Virus record (IMG/VR): IMGVR_UViG_2737471869_000025
Origin: a virus
Taxonomy: Duplodnaviria; Heunggongvirae; Uroviricota; Caudoviricetes
Reading direction: 5' to 3' (one strand)
DNA: 32,991 nt
In this document: positions 3,909 to 13,421 of the stretch, one piece after another
How the letters are laid out: each line of letters opens with the position of its first letter
How positions within the stretch are numbered: position 1 is the stretch's first letter
Made by a program: the position numbers and the translations under genes
Notes under the pieces: model-generated
What the model saw: the letters and a program-made list of their open reading frames with translations, nothing else
Told to the model about the DNA's origin: nothing
Databases searched by the model: none

Positions 3909-4180
3909 GTATTCGTATTGAAATTGGCGAACGTTATGTCGTTACCAGTGACAGCTTTCAGTTTATTCTCCACGAGAAAAAGAGGGCTGAAAGCGGTAAA
4001 AACGCCGGTCAGGAATGGCTGGCGGTAGTTGGTTATTACCCGAAATTAAGCCAGCTCGTTTCCGGCATGATGCATCACGATATTCTGACCGGAAGCGCAA
4101 AGTCTTTTGCTGATTTAAACGCGCAGGTTGAGCAACTCAGCAAGCGTTGTTCAGAGGCTTTTGGCTCACATGGCCGTTAA
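3905..4180 (+). CDS. Early hypothetical protein (P2 orf83-like)
   Basis: 91-aa ORF, overlaps the start of gene A. Confidence 0.55.
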   Translation: MSIRIEIGERYVVTSDSFQFILHEKKRAESGKNAGQEWLAVVGYYPKLSQLVSGMMHHDILTGSAKSFADLNAQVEQLSKRCSEAFGSHGR

Positions 4181-6434
4181 AGCCTCCGGGCATTTTGTCC
4201 CTCCGTCAGCATTTGCCGCAGGCACCGGTAAGACGTTTACCGGTGCTTATGCATGGAACGCGCCACGCGAGGCCGTCGGGCGCGAAAGACCCCTTACACG
4301 TGACGAGATGCGTCAGGTGCAAGGTGTTTTATCCACGATTAACCGCCTGCCTTACTTTTTGCGCTCGCTGTTTACTTCACGCTATGACTACATCCGGCGC
4401 AATAAAAGCCCGGTGCACGGGTTTTATTTCCTCACATCCACTTTTCAGCGTCGTTTATGGCCGCGCATTGAGCGCGTGAATCAGCGCCATGAAATGAACA
4501 CCGACGCGTCGTTGCTGTTTCTGGCAGAGCGCGACCAGTATGCGCGCCTGCCGGGGATGAATGACAAGGAGCTGAAAAAGTTTGCCGCCCGTATCTCATC
4601 ACAGCTTTTCATGATGTATGAGGAACTCTGCGATGCCTGGGTGGATGCGCATGGCGAGAAAGAATCGCTGTTTACGGATGAGGCGCAGGCTCACCTCTAT
4701 GGTCATGTTGCTGGCGCTGCACGTGCTTTCAATATTTCCCCTCTCTACTGGAAAAAATACCGTAAAGGACAGATGACCACGAGGCAGGCATATTCTGCCA
4801 TTGCCCGCCTGTTTAACGATGAGTGGTGGACTCATCAGCTTAAAGGCCAGCGTATGCGCTGGCATGAGGCGTTACTGATTGCTGTCGGGGAGGTCAATAA
4901 AGACCGTTCTCCTTATGCCAGTAAACATGCCATTCGTGATGTGCGTGCGCGCCGCCAGGCAAATCTGGAGTTTCTTAAATCGTGTGACCTTGAGAACAGG
5001 GAAACCGGCGAGCGCATCGACCTTATCAGTAAGGTGATGGGCAGTATTTCTAATCCTGAAATTCGCCGGATGGAGCTGATGAACACCATTGCCGGTATTG
5101 AGCGTTACGCCGATGCAGAGGGTGATGTGGGGATGTTTATCACGCTGACCGCGCCGTCAAAGTATCACCCGACACGTCAGGTCGGAAAAGGCGAAAGTAA
5201 AACCGTGCAGCTTAATCACGGCTGGAACGATGAGGCATTTAATCCAAAGGATGCGCAGCGTTATCTCTGCCGTATCTGGAGCCTGATGCGCACGGCATTC
5301 AAGGATAATGATTTACAGGTCTACGGTTTGCGTGTCGTCGAGCCACACCACGACGGAACGCCGCACTGGCATATGATGCTTTTTTGTAATCCACGCCAGC
5401 GTAACCAGATTATCGAAATCATGCGTCGCTACGCGCTCAAAGAGGATGGCGACGAAAGAGGAGCCGCGCGAAACCGTTTTCAGGCAAAACACCTTAACCG
5501 GGGCGGTGCTGCGGGATATATCGCGAAATACATTTCAAAAAACATCGACGGCTATGCACTGGATGGTCAGCTCGATAACGATACCGGCAGACCGCTGAAA
5601 GACACTGCGGCGGCTGTTACCGCATGGGCGTCAACGTGGCGCATCCCGCAATTTAAAACGGTTGGACTGCCGACAATGGGGGCTTACCGTGAACTACGCA
5701 AATTGCCTCGCGGCGTCAGTATTGCTGATGAGTTTGACGAACGCGTCGAGGCTGCTCGCGCCGCCGCAGACAGTGGCGATTTTGCGCTGTATATCAGCAC
5801 GCAGGGTGGGGCAAATGTTCCGCGCGATTGTCAGACTGTCAGGGTTGCCCGTAGTCCGTCGGATGACGTTAACGAGTACGAGGAAGAAGTCGAGAGAGTG
5901 GTCGGCATTTACGCGCCGCATCTCGGCGCGCGTCATATTCATATCACCAGAACGACGGACTGGCGCATTGTGCCGAAAGTTCCGGTCGTTGAGCCTTTGA
6001 CTTTAAAAAGCGGCATCGCCGCGCCTCGGAGTCCTGTCAATAACTGTGGAAAGCTCACCGGTGGTGATACTTCGTTACCGGCTCCCACACCTTCTGAGCA
6101 CGCCGCAGCAGTGCTTAATCTGGTTGATGACGGTGTTATCGAATGGGATGACCCGGATGTCGTGAGGGCGCTCAGAGGTGCATTGAAACACGGACTGAGA
6201 ACACCAAATCGTCAGCAAAGAAACGGAAGCCCGTTAAAACCGCATGAAATAGCGCCATCAGCCAGACTGACCCGGTCGGAACGAATGCAAATCACCCGTA
6301 TCCGCGTTGACCTTGCTCAGAACGGTATCAGGCCGCAGCGATGGGAACTTGAGGCGCTGGCGCGTGGAGCGACATTGGTATATGGCGAAAAAAAATTCAC
6401 ATATCAGCTTGTTGATAAGCAGTTTGGTTTTTAA
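4170..6434 (+). CDS. A: Replication initiation protein A (rolling-circle nickase)
   Basis: Near-identical to P2 gpA over most of its length as recalled; true start is the ATG at 4170 (MAVKASG...), not the upstream TTG of the ORF track; C-terminal ~25 aa diverge from P2. Confidence 0.9.
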   Translation: MAVKASGHFVPPSAFAAGTGKTFTGAYAWNAPREAVGRERPLTRDEMRQVQGVLSTINRLPYFLRSLFTSRYDYIRRNKSPVHGFYFLTSTFQRRLWPRIERVNQRHEMNTDASLLFLAERDQYARLPGMNDKELKKFAARISSQLFMMYEELCDAWVDAHGEKESLFTDEAQAHLYGHVAGAARAFNISPLYWKKYRKGQMTTRQAYSAIARLFNDEWWTHQLKGQRMRWHEALLIAVGEVNKDRSPYASKHAIRDVRARRQANLEFLKSCDLENRETGERIDLISKVMGSISNPEIRRMELMNTIAGIERYADAEGDVGMFITLTAPSKYHPTRQVGKGESKTVQLNHGWNDEAFNPKDAQRYLCRIWSLMRTAFKDNDLQVYGLRVVEPHHDGTPHWHMMLFCNPRQRNQIIEIMRRYALKEDGDERGAARNRFQAKHLNRGGAAGYIAKYISKNIDGYALDGQLDNDTGRPLKDTAAAVTAWASTWRIPQFKTVGLPTMGAYRELRKLPRGVSIADEFDERVEAARAAADSGDFALYISTQGGANVPRDCQTVRVARSPSDDVNEYEEEVERVVGIYAPHLGARHIHITRTTDWRIVPKVPVVEPLTLKSGIAAPRSPVNNCGKLTGGDTSLPAPTPSEHAAAVLNLVDDGVIEWDDPDVVRALRGALKHGLRTPNRQQRNGSPLKPHEIAPSARLTRSERMQITRIRVDLAQNGIRPQRWELEALARGATLVYGEKKFTYQLVDKQFGF

Positions 6435-6935
6435 TCAAATAGTGTATTAAATGTACTAAAATGTATCTTTTTATATAAAAAACAAAGTGCTGAATCAATT
6501 CTCAGTTTTTGTATTTTTTAGATCGTAAACCGATTAGTGTTACCAAGAGTATTCAGTTAATAGGGCTTTAATTTTTTGCTTCCCTGTTTTGGTGGTTATG
6601 TGGTACTGTTTTTTTATACAGTTTTTGAGGTTGCTGAGAAATAGAAAATGATAGAGTTATATGCGAGCCTTAGTTTAATTCGTTGTAATTAGGATTGGGT
6701 ATATCATTCGTACTGTCAGTGGTCATATACCACTAAGCAAAGCAATAGAATCCTACGAATTATTGTTTAAATAGTAACATTGGCAATTATAACGGCAGTA
6801 TCTGTGTTTTGTCTGTCAGTGGTTACATCGAGAGTATGTGATTTGCATTACATAACTAGTTGATGTTCCTTAGTTGTAGATAGAAAGTATTCGATTTATT
6901 ATAAGAGTACAAAAATTTATGCTAAGGATACTAGA

Positions 6936-7127
6936 ATGGAGTGGATTACACATATAATCACTTTCTTTGTCGGACTAGGAGCGGGTTGGTCGATTCGTGT
7001 CGTGTTTTCATCTAGAAAGCAAATTGGTGATTCCAGCGTGAACTCAAACAATCATACAGTTACTCAAACTGGTAACAGTGTTACAAATGGAAGTATTGTT
7101 GGCGGTAATCAGGATAGGTCACATTAA
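6936..7127 (+). CDS. Small membrane protein of the cargo cassette (single TM helix, Gly/Asn-rich tail)
   Basis: 63 aa; hydrophobic ITHIITFFVGLGAGWSIRVVF then polar tail ending with a GNSVTNGSIVGGNQ motif; first gene of an AT-rich four-gene block. Confidence 0.5.
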   Translation: MEWITHIITFFVGLGAGWSIRVVFSSRKQIGDSSVNSNNHTVTQTGNSVTNGSIVGGNQDRSH

Positions 7128-7138
7128 GAGGTGTTGGT

Positions 7139-7702
7139 GTGTCTATCGAACAGTCAGGAAATACCGTAACAAATGGCAACATAATTTCTGGTGATCAGAC
7201 TAATCATATATTCAATTATCCTGTTAAAGGAACTAACAGGGAGATACAGAAACTTTATGAGTGTTTGAAGAGAGGTGATATAGGGGAAGCGGTTCCGGGG
7301 TTTTGTGCTGAACTAGAGCATTATATGTCCCTTCAGCCTGATATTGATGTTCGGGGGTTAGACGCTAAATTACTCGAGAGTAATAGAAAAGATTTGTTGT
7401 TTTTAGCTAAGCAGATGAAGGAAAAAGCGACAAAAGCTATAATGCGTCGCCAGACGTCAAAAACTGCACAAAGAATATTTGTAATAATTTTAGATCAAAT
7501 TCATTTTGATTTTATAACGAAAGTAACACCACTTATAGAAGCGGATAGCTCCAGAGTGATTGTTGATGAGAAAATCGCTTCAATAATTGATGAATTATAT
7601 TCGTCTTTGGGAGAAAACTTGCTAGAGCTAACAGCAAAAGATCTCTTGGGATTACTATTTTTTCTGGGTGGCAATTGCCATATAAGGTGGGATAAATGCT
7701 AA
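7139..7702 (+). CDS. Hypothetical protein of the cargo cassette (187 aa)
   Basis: GTG start 7 nt after an AAGAGG Shine-Dalgarno; N-terminus GNTVTNGNIISGDQ repeats the C-terminal motif of the upstream ORF; no recognisable catalytic motif. Confidence 0.6.
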   Translation: MSIEQSGNTVTNGNIISGDQTNHIFNYPVKGTNREIQKLYECLKRGDIGEAVPGFCAELEHYMSLQPDIDVRGLDAKLLESNRKDLLFLAKQMKEKATKAIMRRQTSKTAQRIFVIILDQIHFDFITKVTPLIEADSSRVIVDEKIASIIDELYSSLGENLLELTAKDLLGLLFFLGGNCHIRWDKC

Positions 7703-8196
7703 TTTACCATCCAGCATATGATGCATATCATTGTTTATTCAGAATGATTGCTCTTATAGACCATGTAAATGAAATTGAGGTAGATAAGGCCAGGATTTTG
7801 GACTTCTATCTGCTATTTCCTGCTTTGGTATCTGAAATTAGAATGCCTCATAATTATTCTTCAATGAAGAAAGAAGCGAAGAAGTATTCTAATATATATC
7901 GGGATCCTATTAATGTTACATCTACATTCAGAGATATGTATGAAATTCAAATGGCAGCAATAAGATGTCTTGCAGCTACTGGGTTGGTTGAGATGGATTG
8001 TCTTGAGAAAAACATTATAAAGAGAACAGATAAGTCTGTTCCAGATGGCTTATTACTTTCTATTAATAATTTTATTAATACGAATAAAACTATTAATACA
8101 TTTATCATAGACACACTATCTAAATTCCATTTGGTTGGAAAAGATGGTTTAAAAGATAGAACGAAGTTAATGGAGTTTAGATATGACTATTCTTAA
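7696..8196 (+). CDS. Hypothetical protein of the cargo cassette (166 aa, possible middle component)
   Basis: Start overlaps the upstream stop and its own stop overlaps the ATPase start (operon-like coupling); no recognisable motif. Confidence 0.6.
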   Translation: MLIYHPAYDAYHCLFRMIALIDHVNEIEVDKARILDFYLLFPALVSEIRMPHNYSSMKKEAKKYSNIYRDPINVTSTFRDMYEIQMAAIRCLAATGLVEMDCLEKNIIKRTDKSVPDGLLLSINNFINTNKTINTFIIDTLSKFHLVGKDGLKDRTKLMEFRYDYS

Positions 8197-10120
8197 TCCA
8201 TCTTTTTTTGTTAGTAAATTAAAAGTTTTCCAAGCTGGGCATGAAGCCTTTAGCTGTGTTTTCCATAAAGGGGTAAATGTAATAAGGGGGCGAAATAGCT
8301 CTGGCAAAACTACTGTTATGGATCTTTTAGCATTTTCACTTGGTGCTGAAAATATTAGCTTGAAACCAACAGCTCTTTTATGTTCATTTACCATGGTTGA
8401 AGTGCTTTTGAATAATAATCTTGCCTGTTTTAAGCGGGAGATAAGTTCAGAATCCATGCGACCGTTGAGTATTTTTTGGGGCTCGATGGATAAAGCTCTT
8501 AACTCATCACCGAGTCAGTGGCAAACTTATCCTTTTAAGCGTTCAGAAAAATCACTGAGTTTTTCTCAGGTAATTTTAAATGCTTTAGATATGCCTCTAG
8601 CTCAAGGAGAGGGTGCTTCAATTTTAACAATGCATCAAATCCTACGTGTATTATATGCAGATCAGCCATCTCTTCATAGTCCTATATTTAGGAACGATAA
8701 TTTTGATAGAGCTCTAACACGAGAGACTATTGGTGATTATTTATGTGGTATATTTGATGACAAACTTTATAGCTCTTTGATTAGGCTTAAACAAGTTGAT
8801 GCTGAACTTTCGACAAAAATTGTTGAGCTGAAAAGCATATTTAAAGTTCTTGGACGCTCTGGGCAATCGCAGCATGTAAGTTTTATTGACGATAAAATAA
8901 AAGAGCTAAGAGAGAAGAAAGAAAAGATCAATGGCGAGCTTATCTCTCTCAAAGAGAGTAATAACTCTTCTGTTAATGATAAAAATGCTGATAAAACTAA
9001 AACTAACAACCTTCGAAAAAAATTAAATAAAGCGAAAGAAGAAGAAGTAAAAAATATTGACAGTATCCATATGTTAGAAATGGAGATAGCTGACTCTGAA
9101 ATGTTCATTAATGAGTTAGAATCCAGATTGCGCTCTCTTAATGAATCAAGTATTGCCAGAGACTATTTTAGCAACGTTAAATTTCAATTTTGTCCCAGTT
9201 GTTTAAGTGAGTTGAATATTTCCTCTGAAAATGAGTGCTCATTATGTAAAAATCACGCGCCAGAGGGTAGTGATGCTCCTCAATTATTAAGGATGAAAAA
9301 TGAGATTTCTATCCAATTAAAAGAATCCAGAGATCTTCTTGAGCATAATTATGTAAAACTGAGAGAGCTTAAGAGCCAATCTCCTGCTTTAAAGCAAAAA
9401 GTGCGAGATTTAATTCGTGAATATGAAGAAGTCTCTAAGGTTTGGGAAAATGCCTATGAAATAGAGTTTGAAACTCTTACTAAGGCTCTGGGACGTGTTG
9501 AAGAAGAAATTAAACAGGCTTGTGAATTACAAAAACTTAGTGATGTAATATCTGATTTGCAAAAAGAACGTGATAGTCTGCAGTTAGAGAAGGAGAGATT
9601 GTCCTCTTTAATTGAATCTTTGGAGAGTAAAGAGGAATATAGGAAGAAGGATATTTCTAAAACTATAGAAAAAATTATGAAAAGACTTCTTAAAAAAGAT
9701 CTTCCATTGCAGACTGAATTTATTGATCCCAGAAAAGTTAATTTTAGCTTTGCCGATAATACTGTTTATGTAAATGGGGCTAAGTATTTTTCAGAAAGTT
9801 CAGCAGTTGTATTAAGACATCTCTTTCATTTAGCATTGTTAACTGCAAGCATTGAAAAAAAATACATGAGATTACCTCGTTTCCTAATGCTTGATGGAAT
9901 TGACGATGGTGGAATGGAGAAAGAGCGCAGTCACAATCTGCAGAAAATAATAGTACAAGAAACTCAATCGTATCAATATGATTTTCAAATAATTTATGCG
10001 ACATCGGAGATTAATCCAGAATATGAAAATACCGATTTGATTGTTGGTCGGTATTTTAATCCAGATGATAAATCATTAAAGATAAATTATACCGCTCTTG
10101 ATAAAGATTTATTGAACTAA
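8183..10120 (+). CDS. SMC/Rad50-like ABC ATPase with coiled coil and putative zinc hook (candidate defence ATPase)
   Basis: 645 aa; Walker A GRNSSGKTT (aa 36-44); Walker B/D-loop-like RFLMLDGIDDGG (aa 566-577); about 300 aa of charged heptad-like sequence between the lobes; CPSC-x11-CSLC at aa 337-355, the midpoint. Confidence 0.8.
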   Translation: MTILNPSFFVSKLKVFQAGHEAFSCVFHKGVNVIRGRNSSGKTTVMDLLAFSLGAENISLKPTALLCSFTMVEVLLNNNLACFKREISSESMRPLSIFWGSMDKALNSSPSQWQTYPFKRSEKSLSFSQVILNALDMPLAQGEGASILTMHQILRVLYADQPSLHSPIFRNDNFDRALTRETIGDYLCGIFDDKLYSSLIRLKQVDAELSTKIVELKSIFKVLGRSGQSQHVSFIDDKIKELREKKEKINGELISLKESNNSSVNDKNADKTKTNNLRKKLNKAKEEEVKNIDSIHMLEMEIADSEMFINELESRLRSLNESSIARDYFSNVKFQFCPSCLSELNISSENECSLCKNHAPEGSDAPQLLRMKNEISIQLKESRDLLEHNYVKLRELKSQSPALKQKVRDLIREYEEVSKVWENAYEIEFETLTKALGRVEEEIKQACELQKLSDVISDLQKERDSLQLEKERLSSLIESLESKEEYRKKDISKTIEKIMKRLLKKDLPLQTEFIDPRKVNFSFADNTVYVNGAKYFSESSAVVLRHLFHLALLTASIEKKYMRLPRFLMLDGIDDGGMEKERSHNLQKIIVQETQSYQYDFQIIYATSEINPEYENTDLIVGRYFNPDDKSLKINYTALDKDLLN

Positions 10121-10124
10121 CAAC

Positions 10125-10154
10125 CAAAACCATGCATAACCATGCATGGTTTTG
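10125..10154 (+). terminator. Hairpin immediately after the cargo operon (possible terminator)
   Basis: 12-bp perfect stem 10125..10136 / 10143..10154 with 6-nt loop, 5 nt after the ATPase stop; the T-run is partly inside the stem, so strength is uncertain. Confidence 0.45.
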
Positions 10155-10263
10155 CATTTATATCAGCTTGTTTTTGAATCGGGGCAAGTCCAGAGGTGGT
10201 AAGCTGTTTGGAGAAAACTGCAACTGCATTAAAACCGCCCCACGAAGCGGGCGGGCGAGGCGG

Positions 10264-10282
10264 GGAAAGCACTGCGCGCTGG
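10264..10282. other. cos: cos cohesive-end site (19 nt)
   Basis: ggcgaggcggggaaagcac matches the P2 19-nt cohesive end as recalled; located between the cargo and Q as in P2; flanked by GC-rich dyads. Confidence 0.65.
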
Positions 10283-10441
10283 CGGTGGTGCTGATTTTAT
10301 TTTTTCAGCGTCTGAGCGCGTCGTGATGGCGTTTAGATTGTTCGCCGGGGGCGTTGGTGTGTATGCGGGCTGTTTTGCGCGGTGGTGAGCGTGTGAGGGC
10401 GTGATGACGGGGTGTAAAAAGCCGCCCGCAGGCGGCGATGT

Positions 10442-11476
10442 TCAGCCGTTGTCAGTGTCCAGTGAGTAGTTTTTAAAGCGGATGACCTCCTGACCGAGCC
10501 AGCCGTTTATTTCCCGAATCCTGTCCTGTAGCGGGATAAGCTCATTGCGGACAAAGACCTTTGCCACTTTCTCAATATCGCCCAGCGACCCGACGTTCTC
10601 CGGCTTGCCGCCCATCAACTGAAAGGGGATGCGGTGCGCGTCCAGCAGGTCAGCGGCGCTGGCTTTTTTGATATTAAAAAAATCGTCCTTCGTTGCCACT
10701 TCACTGAGCGGGATAATTTTAATGCCGTCGGCTTTCCCCTGTGGGGCATAGAGAAACAGATTTTTAAAGTTATTGCGGCCTTTCGACTTAACCATGTTTT
10801 CGCGAAGCATTTCGATATCGTTGCGGTCCTGCACGGCATCGGTGACGTACATGATGTATCCGGCATGTGCGCCGTTTTCGTAATACTTGCGGCGGAACAG
10901 CGTGGCTGATTCATTCAGCCAGGCAGAGTTAAGGGCGCTGAGATATTCCGGCAGACCGTACAGCTCCTGATTAATATCCGGCTCCAGCAGGTGAAACACG
11001 GAGCCGGGCGCGAAAGGTGTCGGCTCATGGAAGGACGGCACCCACCAGTAAACATCCTCTTCCACGCCACGGCGGGTATATTTTGCCGGTGAGGTTTCCA
11101 GTCTGATGACCTTACCGGTGGTGCTGTAACGCTTTTCCAGAAACGCATTACCGAACACCAGAAAGTCCAGCACAAAGCGGCTGAAATTCTGCTGTGAAAG
11201 CCACGGATGCGGGATAAATGTCGAGGCCAGAATATTGCGTTTAACGTAAATCGGCGAGCTGTGATGCACGGCAGCACGCAGGCTTTTTGCCAGACCGGTA
11301 AAGCTGACCGGCGGCTCATACCATCTGCCGTTACTGATGCACTCGACGTAATCCAGAATGTCACGGCGGTCGAGTACCGGCACCGGCTCGCCAAAGGTGA
11401 ATGCCTCCATTTTCGGGGCGCTGGCGGTCATTTTTTTTGCCGCAGGTTGCGGTGTTTTCCCTTTTTTCTTGCTCAT
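10442..11476 (-). CDS. Q: Portal protein
   Basis: 344 aa, matches P2 gpQ as recalled; position next to cos and upstream of P. Confidence 0.95.
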   Translation of the reverse strand: MSKKKGKTPQPAAKKMTASAPKMEAFTFGEPVPVLDRRDILDYVECISNGRWYEPPVSFTGLAKSLRAAVHHSSPIYVKRNILASTFIPHPWLSQQNFSRFVLDFLVFGNAFLEKRYSTTGKVIRLETSPAKYTRRGVEEDVYWWVPSFHEPTPFAPGSVFHLLEPDINQELYGLPEYLSALNSAWLNESATLFRRKYYENGAHAGYIMYVTDAVQDRNDIEMLRENMVKSKGRNNFKNLFLYAPQGKADGIKIIPLSEVATKDDFFNIKKASAADLLDAHRIPFQLMGGKPENVGSLGDIEKVAKVFVRNELIPLQDRIREINGWLGQEVIRFKNYSLDTDNG

Positions 11477-13248
11477 CAGTAAAACTCCAGAATGGTGGAT
11501 GTCAGCGGTGTGCTGATACCGGCGGTGAGTGGCTCATTTAACAGGGCGTGCATGGTCGCCCAGGCGAGGTCGGCGTGGCTGGCTTCCTCGCTGCGGCTGG
11601 CCTCATAGGTGGCGCTGCGTCCGCTGCTGGTCATGGTCTTGCGGATAGCCATGAACGAGCTGGTGATGTCGGTGGCGCTGACGTCATATTCCAGACAGCC
11701 ACGGCGAATAACGTCTTTTGCCTTGAGCACCATTGCGGTTTTCATTTCCGGTGTGTAGCGGATATCGCGCGCGGCGGGATAGAACGAGCGCACGAGCTGG
11801 AACACGCCGACACCGAGGCCGGTGGCATCAATACCGATGTATTCGACGTTGTATTTTTCGGTGAGTTTGCGGATGGATTCCGCCTGAGTGGCAAAGTCCA
11901 TGCCTTTCCACTGGTGACGCTCAAGTATTCTGAATTTGCCACCGGCCACCACCGGCGGTGCCAGCACCACGCATCCGGCACTGTCGCCACGGTGTGACGG
12001 GTCGTAACCAATCCATACCGGGCGGGAGCCGAACGGATTCACGGCAAACGGCGCATAGTCTTCCCATTCTTCCAGCGTGTCGACCATGCAGCGTTGCAGC
12101 TCCTCGAACGGGAACACCGACGCCTTGTCGTCAACAAATTCACACATGAACAGGTTTTTAAAATCGTCGGCGCTGTTTTCGCGTTTAAGCTGCTCAATGT
12201 CGAACAATGTGCAGCCGCCTTTCAGCGCGTCCTCAATGGTGACAATCTGTCGCCACTGGCCGTCCGCACAGAGAAGCCCACCGGCAAGGGCGTTATGACT
12301 GACGTCGATTTCCACGCGTTCAGCGGCACTGGCGCGTCCCCGGTTAAACAGTTCACCCGACCAGAACGGATAGGCGTCGTGCGCCAGCGTGGACGGGGTG
12401 GAGAAATAGGTCGAGCGCAGGTGACTCTGTGAGGCCATACCTGATGCCACCTTACGCAGTACCTGAAAATTCGGGATCCAGAAAATCTCGTCGACGTACA
12501 GGTCGCCGTTATGGCTCTGTGCGGTGTTGGAGTTGGTGCCGAGAAAAATTAGTTTTGCGCCGTTATTGCCCAGGACAATCGGGTCACCGGTCAGGTCAAC
12601 GTCAACCAGACGGGCAAAGGCGATGATGTATTCGCGGAACACATACGCCTGCGTTTTACTGGCCGACAGAAAAATCTGGTTATGACCGGTTTTCAGGGCG
12701 CGCAGCAGCGCCTCGCGGGAAAAATAAAACGTCGCGCCAATCTGGCGGGATTTCAGGATATCGCGGATGCGGTGCTCAAGCCCGGCGCGATACCAGTGCA
12801 ACTGATATTCGAAAGACTGCTCAAAGAAAATCTGCTCCAGCTTTTCGATGGCCTCGTCACTGAAAAAATTCTTTTTCGGTTTGCGACGCCCGCCTTTGTT
12901 GCGGTTAGCGACGTTCGGATTAAGGTCTGCCTCGTTGCCGGTCTGACTGTAGCGGTTTACCCGTGCCAGTCGTTCAATCTGGCGTCCGAGCAGGTCAATT
13001 TCCTTGAAGTCACCGCCGGTTTTCTGCGGTTTGATGATGAGCTGGGTCAGCCGCGCTTCCAGACTCATTTCGACACGGCTGATGGGGGCAACGCTGTCCC
13101 AGCCGTCGCGCTGTTTCCAGCTCTGCACCGTCGGGCGTTTCATCTGCAACATGGCGGCAATCTGCGGCACGGAAAATCCCTGCCAGTACAGCAGCGCCGC
13201 CTGACGACGCGGGTCGTGTAAAAGAGTGGTGTCTGTGGTGATGGTCAT
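11476..13248 (-). CDS. P: Terminase large subunit (ATPase)
   Basis: Matches P2 gpP as recalled; start taken at the ATG giving MTITTDTTLL (590 aa) rather than the longer ORF-track start. Confidence 0.95.
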   Translation of the reverse strand: MTITTDTTLLHDPRRQAALLYWQGFSVPQIAAMLQMKRPTVQSWKQRDGWDSVAPISRVEMSLEARLTQLIIKPQKTGGDFKEIDLLGRQIERLARVNRYSQTGNEADLNPNVANRNKGGRRKPKKNFFSDEAIEKLEQIFFEQSFEYQLHWYRAGLEHRIRDILKSRQIGATFYFSREALLRALKTGHNQIFLSASKTQAYVFREYIIAFARLVDVDLTGDPIVLGNNGAKLIFLGTNSNTAQSHNGDLYVDEIFWIPNFQVLRKVASGMASQSHLRSTYFSTPSTLAHDAYPFWSGELFNRGRASAAERVEIDVSHNALAGGLLCADGQWRQIVTIEDALKGGCTLFDIEQLKRENSADDFKNLFMCEFVDDKASVFPFEELQRCMVDTLEEWEDYAPFAVNPFGSRPVWIGYDPSHRGDSAGCVVLAPPVVAGGKFRILERHQWKGMDFATQAESIRKLTEKYNVEYIGIDATGLGVGVFQLVRSFYPAARDIRYTPEMKTAMVLKAKDVIRRGCLEYDVSATDITSSFMAIRKTMTSSGRSATYEASRSEEASHADLAWATMHALLNEPLTAGISTPLTSTILEFY

Positions 13249-13421
13249 GAATACCTCGCCGTGATGAATACACGGCAAGGCTACTGAGTCGCGCCCCGCG
13301 ATTCGCTAAGGTGCTGTTGTGTCAGTGATAAGCCATCCGGGACTGATGGCGGAGGATGCGCATCGTCGGGAAACTGATGCCGACATGTGACTCCTCTAAT
13401 CACTATTCAGGACTCCTGACA

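What the first reader, a model, noticed from the sequence alone, without database searches (positions are those of the whole stretch)
9191..9247. CxxC-x11-CxxC motif at the exact midpoint of the ATPase coiled coil (putative zinc hook)
Residues 337-355 (CPSCLSELNISSENECSLC) are the only cysteine cluster in the 645-aa protein and lie at its midpoint, between two long charged helical stretches. Rad50/SbcC dimerise through a zinc hook at the same position. Two CxxC pairs in one chain could instead form an intramolecular zinc knuckle capping the coiled-coil apex.
Basis: partly seen in the sequence, partly recalled or inferred. Interest (0 to 1): 0.65.

Follow-up and report, generated by a model that had tools for sequence, protein, structure and literature searches.

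The report
Four-cysteine zinc apex of Lamassu LmuB
The cysteine cluster is real and strictly conserved, and it sits at the tip of the coiled coil of LmuB, the Rad50-like sensor ATPase of a Lamassu anti-phage system carried by a P2-like prophage; zinc-hook motifs in LmuB, including two-copy versions like this one, are already described in the literature, so the finding is correct but not new.

Summary
Window 9191-9247 encodes C337-P-S-C340-x11-C352-S-L-C355 in a 645-aa ORF (8183-10120, +). These are 4 of its 9 cysteines and the only cluster. The motif lies in the non-helical apex (residues 327-364) between two coiled-coil arms of about 135 residues each.

Chance is excluded. Random cysteine placement gives such a motif in 2e-4 of trials. 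All 120 close homologs keep it, and so do 148 of 150 mutually <50%-identical representatives (spacer 11-20).

The protein is LmuB of a short Lamassu (ABC-3C) system: an MC5 LmuC, an effector-less CTD9 LmuA and a PADLOC LmuB match. It sits in an AT-rich cargo slot of a P2-like prophage.

Zinc hooks in LmuB are published, and hook mutants lose defence. Haudiquet et al. 2025 already record short LmuBs with zero, one or two CxxC copies.

Whether the four cysteines bind zinc within one chain or across two chains is unresolved. A monomer AlphaFold model of the apex (module pLDDT 71-85, β-bridges flanking each CxxC) and the spacing favour an intrachain zinc ribbon. I could not test dimers or metal.

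In passing: a conserved small membrane ORF upstream shares a co-varying motif with the CTD9 protein and may be the missing effector.

The parts
9191..9247 (+). Four-cysteine apex module, C337-P-S-C340-x11-C352-S-L-C355, of LmuB
   Evidence: Translation. The four Cys plus P338 and L354 are invariant in 57 aligned homologs. The motif is kept in 120/120 close homologs and 148/150 representatives.
9191..9202 (+). First knuckle, CPSC (C337, C340); family consensus F-x-F-C-P-x-C-[LFY]
   Evidence: The AF2 fragment model has beta-bridge residues at 336 and 343 flanking it.
9236..9247 (+). Second knuckle, CSLC (C352, C355); family consensus C-x-[LV]-C-[KT]
   Evidence: The AF2 fragment model has beta-bridge residues at 351 and 358 flanking it.
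9161..9274 (+). Non-helical apex of the coiled-coil hairpin (residues 327-364) that holds the module
   Evidence: DSSP of the AF2 models. Full length: helices 269-326 and 365-418, apex pLDDT <50. Apex fragment with an 88-sequence alignment: helices 283-330 and 364-409, apex pLDDT 71-85.
8759..9160 (+). Ascending coiled-coil arm of LmuB (residues ~193-326, with breaks at 227-234 and 259-268)
   Evidence: AF2 secondary structure.
9275..9691 (+). Descending coiled-coil arm of LmuB (residues ~365-503, with a break at 419-423)
   Evidence: AF2 secondary structure.
8183..10120 (+). lmuB: SMC/Rad50-like ABC ATPase, 645 aa. Walker A is G36-RNSSGKT-T44; Walker B is FLMLD571-G572.
   Evidence: PADLOC LmuB PDLC03862 E 9.9e-47. 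Pfam AAA_23. Best Foldseek PDB matches are LmuB chains 9hqu_A (E 7e-18), 9uxh_F and 9nyg_B, followed by Rad50.
7696..8196 (+). lmuC: ABC-3C middle component 5, 166 aa; overlaps lmuA by 7 nt and lmuB by 14 nt
   Evidence: Pfam PF20291 MC5, E 1.1e-52, full length. RefSeq annotation.
7139..7702 (+). lmuA-like gene: 187 aa with the CTD9 domain at residues 73-184 and no recognisable effector domain; the N-terminus carries the G-N-x-V-x-N-G-x-I-[IV]-x-G-D-Q motif
   Evidence: Pfam PF20285 CTD9, E 2.4e-29. All 114 homologs found are 125-223 aa and none has an enzymatic domain.
6936..7127 (+). Small ORF, 63 aa: N-terminal hydrophobic helix plus a C-terminal G-N-S-V-T-N-G-S-I-V-G-G-N-Q motif; candidate fourth component
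   Evidence: Conserved directly upstream of the CTD9 gene in all 25 loci examined, including loci whose LmuB is only 37-39% identical. Matches phrog_17975 at E 1.5e-45. Annotated 'hypothetical protein' in RefSeq.

Best explanation
The motif is the apex ('hook-position') module of LmuB, the Rad50-like DNA-sensing ATPase of a short Lamassu / ABC-3C defence system (small TM ORF, LmuA-CTD9, LmuC-MC5, LmuB) carried as cargo by a P2-like prophage.

I think the four invariant cysteines most likely bind one structural Zn2+ within each chain. The two CxxC turns would act as the two knuckles of a miniature zinc ribbon that caps the antiparallel coiled coil. The zinc-stiffened cap, together with the conserved hydrophobic residues around it (F334, F336, L341, L/I344, L354), would form the distal surface where the two LmuB arms meet. 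It would also be where LmuC and the LmuA C-terminal domain are held in the resting complex, as seen at the coiled-coil tip in solved Lamassu complexes.

When the ATPase heads engage a DNA end, the folded coiled coils rearrange and the CTD9 protein is released to oligomerise.

Shown here: the identity as LmuB, the apex position and the conservation. Inferred: zinc binding, intrachain coordination, the docking role and the release step.

The confidence of 0.55 is for the whole statement including intrachain coordination. That this is the zinc-hook-position module of a Lamassu LmuB I hold at about 0.9.
For: Identity: PADLOC LmuB E 1e-46; MC5 and CTD9 neighbours; top structural matches are LmuB chains 9hqu, 9hqx, 9uxh and 9nyg.

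Apex position: AF2 helices flank residues 327-364.

Selection: invariant C337/P338/C340/C352/L354/C355; 120/120 and 148/150 conservation, with only the spacer varying in length (11-20) and sequence; chance 2e-4.

Intrachain reading:
- All four Cys are needed in every lineage.
- The spacer behaves like an exposed loop.
- The monomer AF2 apex model reaches pLDDT 71-85 in the module, with single beta-bridge residues just before and three residues after each CxxC (336/343 and 351/358). That is the geometry of zinc knuckles, not of a helix-turn-helix hook.
- The family profile's best PDB sequence hit is MSMEG_4306 (5y05), a coiled-coil protein with a C4 zinc ribbon, aligned through the first CxxC at E 5.8e-4.
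- One homolog carries the JGI name 'predicted nucleic acid-binding Zn-ribbon protein'.
- Sub-threshold Pfam hits that span both knuckles are zinc-ribbon families (DZR_2 at 5.7e-4, DZR at 0.014-0.04). Rad50_zn_hook scores E 1.5, and only on helix.

Literature:
- LmuB hooks are required for defence in the Salmonella system, and LmuA-CTD and LmuC bind at the hook region (bioRxiv 10.1101/2025.03.14.643221).
- LmuA-CTD binds the distal end of the LmuB coiled coil in the Bacillus system (bioRxiv 10.1101/2025.06.23.660979).
- V. cholerae LmuB has no hook yet still forms LmuA1B2C1, so an interchain zinc is dispensable for dimerisation in short Lamassu; short LmuBs have 0, 1 or 2 CxxC copies (PMC12663957).
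Against: - No metal, dimer or complex data exist for this clade.
- An AF2 monomer cannot show an interchain site, so its fold is biased toward the intrachain solution. I had no coordinates and could not measure S-S distances.
- The full-length model left the apex at pLDDT <50.
- All zinc-ribbon Pfam hits are below the gathering thresholds.
- The ancestral state of the family is an interchain hook, and the first knuckle keeps the hook-like CPxC.
Confidence: 0.55

Rival explanations
1. Interchain double zinc hook. The two LmuB chains are clamped at the apex by two Zn ions, each bound by one CxxC from each chain (knuckle 1 with 1' and 2 with 2', or swapped 1 with 2'). This would be a reinforced version of the Rad50/SbcC hook.
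For: LmuB descends from SbcC/Rad50-type proteins with an interchain CxxC hook, and hooks of the two protomers are juxtaposed in solved LmuB dimers (PMC12663957; bioRxiv 10.1101/2025.03.14.643221; bioRxiv 10.1101/2025.06.23.660979). The first knuckle keeps the hook-like CPxC. The Rad50 hook 1l8d is among the top, though non-significant, Foldseek hits of the apex model.
Against: I know of no precedent for a two-zinc hook in SMC-like proteins (own knowledge). The spacer between knuckles varies from 11 to 20 residues and is poorly conserved, which is easier to reconcile with a loop in a small domain than with a fixed two-site symmetric interface. The Pfam Rad50_zn_hook model does not match the cysteines. 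The monomer model folds the module on its own with fair confidence.
Confidence: 0.27
2. The four cysteines form an intrachain zinc ribbon whose main job is ligand sensing, for example binding nucleic acid or a phage protein at the tip of the coiled coil, rather than a structural or docking role.
For: Small C4 zinc ribbons often bind nucleic acids (own knowledge). The best PDB sequence hit belongs to the COG1579 family, which is annotated as nucleic-acid-binding Zn-ribbon proteins.
Against: In the solved Lamassu complexes DNA ends are bound by the LmuB heads and LmuC, not by the apex, and the apex is occupied by LmuC and LmuA-CTD (PMC12663957; bioRxiv 10.1101/2025.03.14.643221). The variable loop of the module is acidic or polar, not basic.
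Confidence: 0.08
3. The cysteines do not bind zinc. Instead they bind iron (rubredoxin-like or a bridging Fe-S cluster) or form disulfides, making the apex a redox switch.
For: CxxC...CxxC is also the rubredoxin ligand pattern (own knowledge). Nothing in my data distinguishes between metals.
Against: All characterised relatives (Rad50, SbcC, LmuB) are described as zinc hooks in the papers read. The cytoplasmic location argues against stable disulfides. There are no aromatic or Gly signatures of rubredoxin around the knuckles in the alignment.
Confidence: 0.05

Closest known systems
Short Lamassu LmuB with two CxxC copies (Haudiquet et al., PNAS 2025, PMC12663957); probably their 'clade O', which lost the LmuA effector domain
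   Same: SMC-like LmuB of about 600-650 aa, with an LmuC and an LmuA that has only a C-terminal domain. Two CxxC motifs at the putative dimerisation position. [quoted passage not shown]
   Different: Nothing that I can show. I could not see their figure or tables to confirm the clade assignment. That paper gives no structure or mechanism for the two-copy form and never mentions a membrane component.
Solved LmuB hooks: Salmonella enterica LmuACB (PDB 9hqu, 9hqx) and Bacillus LmuAB (9ux7; hook 285-CQYC-288)
   Same: Best structural matches of the full-length model. The hook sits at the distal tip of a folded coiled coil. LmuA-CTD (and LmuC) bind there. Hook mutants lose defence in the Salmonella system.
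   Different: Only 13-16% sequence identity, and no sequence-level PDB hit. The Bacillus hook has a single CxxC, with the two chains' hooks juxtaposed. Zinc density was not resolved in either structure. I could not retrieve the Salmonella sequence to count its CxxC motifs.
Rad50 / SbcC zinc hook (Pfam PF04423; PDB 1l8d, 5gox)
   Same: An ABC ATPase head split by an antiparallel coiled coil, with a CxxC (often CPxC) at the apex.
   Different: Rad50 has one CxxC per chain, and the zinc is shared by two chains. Here there are two CxxC per chain, the Pfam model does not match the cysteines, and the coiled coil is far shorter.
COG1579 proteins CT398 / HP0958 / MSMEG_4306 (PDB 4ilo, 3na7, 5y05): coiled-coil hairpin plus intrachain C4 zinc ribbon
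   Different: They have no ATPase head. Their ribbon follows the hairpin rather than being inserted at its tip (own knowledge). The similarity is weak and largely compositional, so this is not evidence of homology.

Membership tests
Lamassu LmuB (ABC-3C coiled-coil ABC ATPase) | N- and C-terminal halves of an SMC/Rad50-type ABC head, separated by an antiparallel coiled coil of about 300 residues | tested here: met
   Walker A GRNSSGKTT, and invariant signature-like FSESS and Walker B LMLD. Pfam AAA_23 and SMC_N. AF2 topology. Foldseek top hits are LmuB chains at E 7e-18 to 1.5e-12.
Lamassu LmuB (ABC-3C coiled-coil ABC ATPase) | Match to curated LmuB profiles | tested here: met
   PADLOC LmuB models PDLC03862 (E 9.9e-47), PDLC03859 (4.7e-35) and PDLC03863 (1.3e-28), each nearly full length.
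Lamassu / ABC-3C operon | lmuA-lmuC-lmuB gene order with a 'middle component' and an LmuA C-terminal domain of a catalogued type | tested here: met
   Pfam MC5 E 1.1e-52 and CTD9 E 2.4e-29 in the two genes directly upstream, with overlapping coding ends. The same order occurs in 25 loci.
Lamassu / ABC-3C operon | LmuA carries an N-terminal effector domain (nuclease, lipase, protease, Sir2 and so on) | tested here: not met
   The LmuA-like protein is 187 aa with only CTD9 at residues 73-184. All 114 homologs are 125-223 aa and lack an enzymatic domain. This is consistent with the published effector-less clade (PMC12663957).
Lamassu / ABC-3C operon | Confers phage or plasmid defence | not testable with these tools
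   Only context is available: AT-rich cargo (32-38% GC against 48-60% in the flanks) between the P2 replication gene and the portal gene. [quoted passage not shown]
Rad50/SbcC-type zinc hook | CxxC at the apex of the antiparallel coiled coil | tested here: met
   C337-P-S-C340 lies in the non-helical apex 327-364.
Rad50/SbcC-type zinc hook | One CxxC per chain, so that two chains share one Zn (2+2 ligands) | tested here: not met
   Two CxxC per chain, and all four Cys are invariant.
Rad50/SbcC-type zinc hook | Match to Pfam PF04423 Rad50_zn_hook | tested here: not met
   One of 8 apex fragments hit at E 1.5 (9.2 bits against a cut-off of 24.3), and only on the helix, not on the cysteines.
Rad50/SbcC-type zinc hook | Zn-dependent dimerisation | not testable with these tools
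   No multimer prediction, coordinates or metal data were available.
Intrachain C4 zinc ribbon / double zinc knuckle | Two CxxC turns about 10-20 residues apart, each at the tip of a beta hairpin | tested here: inconclusive
   Spacing is 11-20. The AF2 monomer apex model has beta-bridge residues at 336/343 and 351/358 with pLDDT 71-85. However, a monomer model cannot show the alternative, and no coordinates were returned.
Intrachain C4 zinc ribbon / double zinc knuckle | Match to a curated zinc-ribbon family above threshold | tested here: not met
   The best hits are DZR_2 at E 5.7e-4 (20.1 bits against 27) and DZR at 0.014-0.04. All are below the gathering scores.

The most novel reading that the evidence does not exclude
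In this LmuB clade the ancestral interchain zinc hook has been converted into an intrachain four-cysteine zinc cap. The cap serves as the docking platform for MC5 and CTD9. The 'missing' effector of this Lamassu type is the conserved 51-68-aa membrane protein encoded just upstream. It would pair with the CTD9 adaptor through the short G-N-x-V-x-G-D-x-V-G-G-D-type motif that both carry and that co-varies between them. DNA-end sensing would then release CTD9, whose oligomerisation clusters the transmembrane helices and kills the cell through the membrane. This would be a split, non-enzymatic Lamassu effector.
Probability: 0.25. Interest if true: 0.6.

Novelty: already known. Interest (0 to 1): 0.3.

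Why it matters
The finding correctly picks out the functional tip of a phage-borne immune sensor, but it adds little as it stands. LmuB zinc hooks have been described, mutated and partly visualised, and two-copy CxxC variants have been counted across the family.

One question remains open. Does a second CxxC turn the Rad50-style interchain clamp into a self-contained zinc cap? If so, dimerisation and effector sequestration in these compact SMC-like sensors would rest on protein contacts rather than on a shared metal. That is a modest but testable point about how SMC-like machines were remodelled for immunity.

The side observation may be worth more. It is a conserved small membrane protein with a motif matched to the effector-less LmuA, and it offers a concrete candidate for how 'effector-less' Lamassu systems kill.

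Tried and rejected
- **Chance or low-complexity artefact:** rejected by the random-placement test and by conservation.
- **Sequence search of the PDB:** the protein and a 57-sequence profile found no LmuB or Rad50 hook. Only head-domain P-loop hits and coiled-coil noise appeared, apart from 5y05.
- **Full-length AF2:** left the apex unmodelled at pLDDT <50. A fragment run with a more diverse alignment fixed this, but the tool returns no coordinates. I therefore could not measure Cys-Cys distances, and no multimer option exists.
- **Pfam on 8 apex fragments:** only sub-threshold hits.
- **Programmed frameshift or split pseudogene:** I considered that the small ORF and the CTD9 gene might be one gene joined by a frameshift. 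I rejected this because the relative frames differ between loci (same frame in L012, different in the window, L003 and L006). The stop plus restart arrangement is kept in all 25 loci, and no fused homolog was found.
- **Literature gaps:** Krishnan et al. 2020 (NAR), which defined MC5 and CTD9, is not held. The supplements of PMC12663957 are not held, so I could not confirm the clade label or whether the small ORF was noted there.
- **Salmonella LmuB:** I could not obtain the 9hqu sequence to count its CxxC motifs.
Full report
**1. The observation**

Window 9191-9247 on the + strand reads TGT CCC AGT TGT ... TGC TCA TTA TGT. It translates to CPSCLSELNISSENECSLC, residues 337-355 of the 645-aa ORF at 8183-10120. 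The protein has nine cysteines (25, 67, 82, 188, 337, 340, 352, 355, 447), so the four in this stretch are its only cluster. The spacer between C340 and C352 is exactly 11 residues.

The phrase 'exact midpoint' holds for the coiled coil, not for the protein. The motif centre is residue 346 of 645. AlphaFold2 puts helical arms at about 193-326 and 365-503, with the motif in the non-helical stretch between them.

**2. More than chance**

Placing nine cysteines at random in 645 positions gives a CxxC-x5-25-CxxC arrangement in 61 of 300,000 trials, or 2e-4.

- All 120 best homologs from the 5.8-billion-protein search (52-99% identity) have the motif at the same place.
- In a 57-sequence alignment F334, C337, P338, C340, C352, L354 and C355 are invariant. 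F336, S339 and L341 are nearly so.
- An exhaustive profile search of 1.84 billion cluster representatives found 1,640 relatives (E ≤ 0.001).
- Of the best 150, which are mutually below 50% identity, 148 carry CPxC-x(11-20)-Cx[LV]C. The spacer lengths are 11 (46 sequences), 12 (72), 13 (18), 14 (7), 15 (3), 16 (1) and 20 (1).
- The other two retain three of the four cysteines.
- The residues between the knuckles are variable, polar or acidic, and tolerate insertions and deletions.

**3. What the protein is**

The two genes directly upstream, with overlapping ends, match Pfam families of the ABC-three-component systems. The gene at 7696-8196 is 'middle component 5' (E 1.1e-52). The gene at 7139-7702 has 'C-terminal domain 9' at residues 73-184 (E 2.4e-29).

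The 645-aa protein matches PADLOC LmuB models almost end to end (E 9.9e-47). It has a Walker A motif, GRNSSGKTT. Its AlphaFold2 model (pLDDT 78) finds solved LmuB chains as its best PDB matches: Salmonella 9hqu_A at E 7e-18, then 9hqx, 9uxh and 9nyg, ahead of Rad50, JetC and SMC heads. Identity is only 13-16%. Sequence searches of the PDB find no LmuB at all. So this is LmuB of a short Lamassu (ABC-3C) system, from a clade that is distant from all solved examples.

**4. Where it sits**

The cassette (about 6500-10000) has 32-38% GC. It lies between a P2-type replication endonuclease gene (4128-6434) and the portal and terminase genes (10442-13278, minus strand), which have 48-60% GC. A region covering at least 80% of window 6400-10450 occurs in only 19 of 5,426 complete E. 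coli genomes, whereas 2,156 genomes match some part of it. A second, 55%-identical version occupies the same slot of another P2-like prophage. Burkholderia copies sit in a defence island next to a type I restriction gene. This is typical variable defence cargo of P2-like phages (PMC13586616).

**5. What is already known**

Three sources describe LmuB as Rad50-like with a zinc hook at the far end of the coiled coil.

- A 2023 review states that many, but not all, LmuBs carry 'CPxCG or similar' (PMC10586767).
- The Salmonella LmuACB study reports that defence requires the LmuB zinc hook. It also reports that LmuC and the LmuA C-terminal domain sit at the hook region, and that zinc density could not be resolved (bioRxiv 10.1101/2025.03.14.643221).
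- The Bacillus LmuAB structure shows a single 285-CQYC-288 hook juxtaposed between the two chains, with LmuA-CTD bound at that distal end (bioRxiv 10.1101/2025.06.23.660979).

[quoted passage not shown] They found that long LmuBs have one copy and short ones zero, one or two, and concluded that short LmuBs 'may employ divergent dimerization strategies'. They also describe a clade that lost the LmuA effector domain while keeping LmuC and LmuB (PMC12663957). The V. cholerae LmuB that they solved has no hook yet still forms LmuA1B2C1.

What has not been published, as far as the held papers show, is a structure or mechanism for the two-copy form.

**6. One chain or two**

I could not run a dimer prediction, and the structure tool returns no coordinates. 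The evidence is therefore indirect.

A fragment model (residues 282-410) built on 88 diverse sequences reached mean pLDDT 90.8. It has helices at 283-330 and 364-409. The module between them has pLDDT 71-85, with isolated β-bridge residues at 336, 343, 351 and 358. These fall immediately before, and three residues after, each CxxC. That is the pattern of two zinc knuckles, as in a zinc ribbon, rather than a helix-turn-helix hook.

Further indirect evidence:

- The family profile's best PDB sequence hit is MSMEG_4306 (5y05), a coiled-coil protein with an intrachain C4 ribbon, aligned through the first CxxC at E 5.8e-4.
- One homolog carries the JGI name 'predicted nucleic acid-binding Zn-ribbon protein'.
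- On eight apex fragments, the weak Pfam hits that span both knuckles are zinc-ribbon families (DZR_2 5.7e-4; DZR 0.014-0.04). All are below threshold.
- The Rad50 hook model scores E 1.5, and only on helix.

Against over-reading this evidence:

- A monomer model cannot show an interchain site.
- The full-length model left the apex below pLDDT 50.

I put the intrachain cap at roughly twice the likelihood of a two-zinc interchain hook.

**7. How it most likely works**

In every solved Lamassu complex the tip of the folded LmuB coiled coils holds the LmuA C-terminal domain, and LmuC where present. DNA ends are bound at the heads. Activation releases LmuA, which then oligomerises through its C-terminal domain (PMC12663957 and both preprints above).

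By analogy, the four-cysteine module here would be a zinc-stiffened cap. It would keep the apex in shape and present the conserved hydrophobic residues as the contact surface for the second LmuB, MC5 and CTD9. This step is inferred, not shown.

**8. Side observations**

The LmuA-like protein has no effector domain. All 114 homologs found are 125-223 aa with CTD9 only.

Directly upstream (6936-7127) lies a 63-aa ORF with an N-terminal hydrophobic helix. An equivalent 51-68-aa ORF precedes the CTD9 gene in all 25 loci examined, from E. coli to Burkholderia, Pseudomonas, Methylibium and Acinetobacter. This holds even where LmuB identity falls to 37-39%. It matches a PHROG family of unknown function (E 1.5e-45).

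The C-terminal tail of this small protein and the N-terminus of the CTD9 protein carry the same short motif, and the motif changes in parallel between lineages:

| Lineage | Small ORF tail | CTD9 protein N-terminus |
|---|---|---|
| This window | GNSVTNGSIVGGNQ | GNTVTNGNIISGDQ |
| Burkholderia and relatives | NRAGGDIVGGDM | NDVGGDLVGGDK |
| Methylibium | AGGDVAGRDIN | AGGHVAGRDVN |
| Acinetobacter | NGKMVGRDDNS | ADKIVGRDDNS |

The reading frames of the two genes differ between loci, so this is not a frameshifted single gene.

CTD9 elsewhere accompanies lipase effectors and is predicted to form cyclic oligomers (bioRxiv 10.1101/2025.03.14.643221). A reasonable but untested idea follows: the membrane peptide is the effector of this 'effector-less' Lamassu, recruited through the matched motif and clustered when CTD9 oligomerises. 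The PNAS paper never uses the word 'membrane'. I could not check Krishnan et al. 2020, which defined these families.

The Walker B of this clade reads LMLD-G with an invariant glycine where Glu, Gln, Ser or Thr is reported for other LmuBs (PMC12663957).

**9. Verdict**

It is the known zinc-hook position of a known defence ATPase, in its already catalogued two-CxxC form. Novelty is low. The remaining interest lies in the unresolved coordination mode and in the conserved membrane ORF next door.

Noticed in passing
window 6936-7127 (+), with 7139-7210 (+): A 63-aa ORF with an N-terminal hydrophobic helix lies directly upstream of the effector-less CTD9 gene. It is conserved in all 25 loci examined (LmuB identity down to 37%) and matches phrog_17975. 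Its C-terminal motif (GNSVTNGSIVGGNQ) recurs at the N-terminus of the CTD9 protein (GNTVTNGNIISGDQ), and the two copies co-vary between lineages. It is a candidate fourth component or membrane effector of this Lamassu clade.
   Followed up: partly
window 7139-7702 (+): The LmuA-like protein is only 187 aa, with CTD9 at residues 73-184 and no enzymatic effector domain. All 114 homologs found are similarly short. This probably corresponds to the published 'clade O' of short Lamassu that lost the effector domain.
   Followed up: partly
window 9878-9919 (+), LmuB residues 566-579: Walker B reads R-F-L-M-L-D-G-I-D-D-G-G-M-E, with D571-G572 invariant across 57 homologs. There is no Glu, Gln, Ser or Thr after the Asp, unlike the hhhhD[Q/S/T/E] reported for short LmuBs. 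This suggests very low ATP hydrolysis or a relocated catalytic residue.
   Followed up: no
window 6435-10130: An AT-rich cargo island (32-38% GC against 48-60% in the flanks) lies between the P2-type replication gene and the portal gene, preceded by about 500 bp of AT-rich non-coding DNA. A region covering at least 80% of window 6400-10450 is present in only 19 of 5,426 complete E. coli genomes. A 55%-identical version, together with a KAP NTPase gene, fills the same slot in another P2-like prophage (L002).
   Followed up: partly
[not shown]
   Followed up: no
window 7696-7702 and 8183-8196 (+): lmuA and lmuC overlap by 7 nt, and lmuC and lmuB by 14 nt. The small ORF stops 11 nt before the GTG start of the CTD9 gene, with a GAGGTG ribosome-binding site between them. 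This layout suggests translational coupling of all four genes.
   Followed up: no
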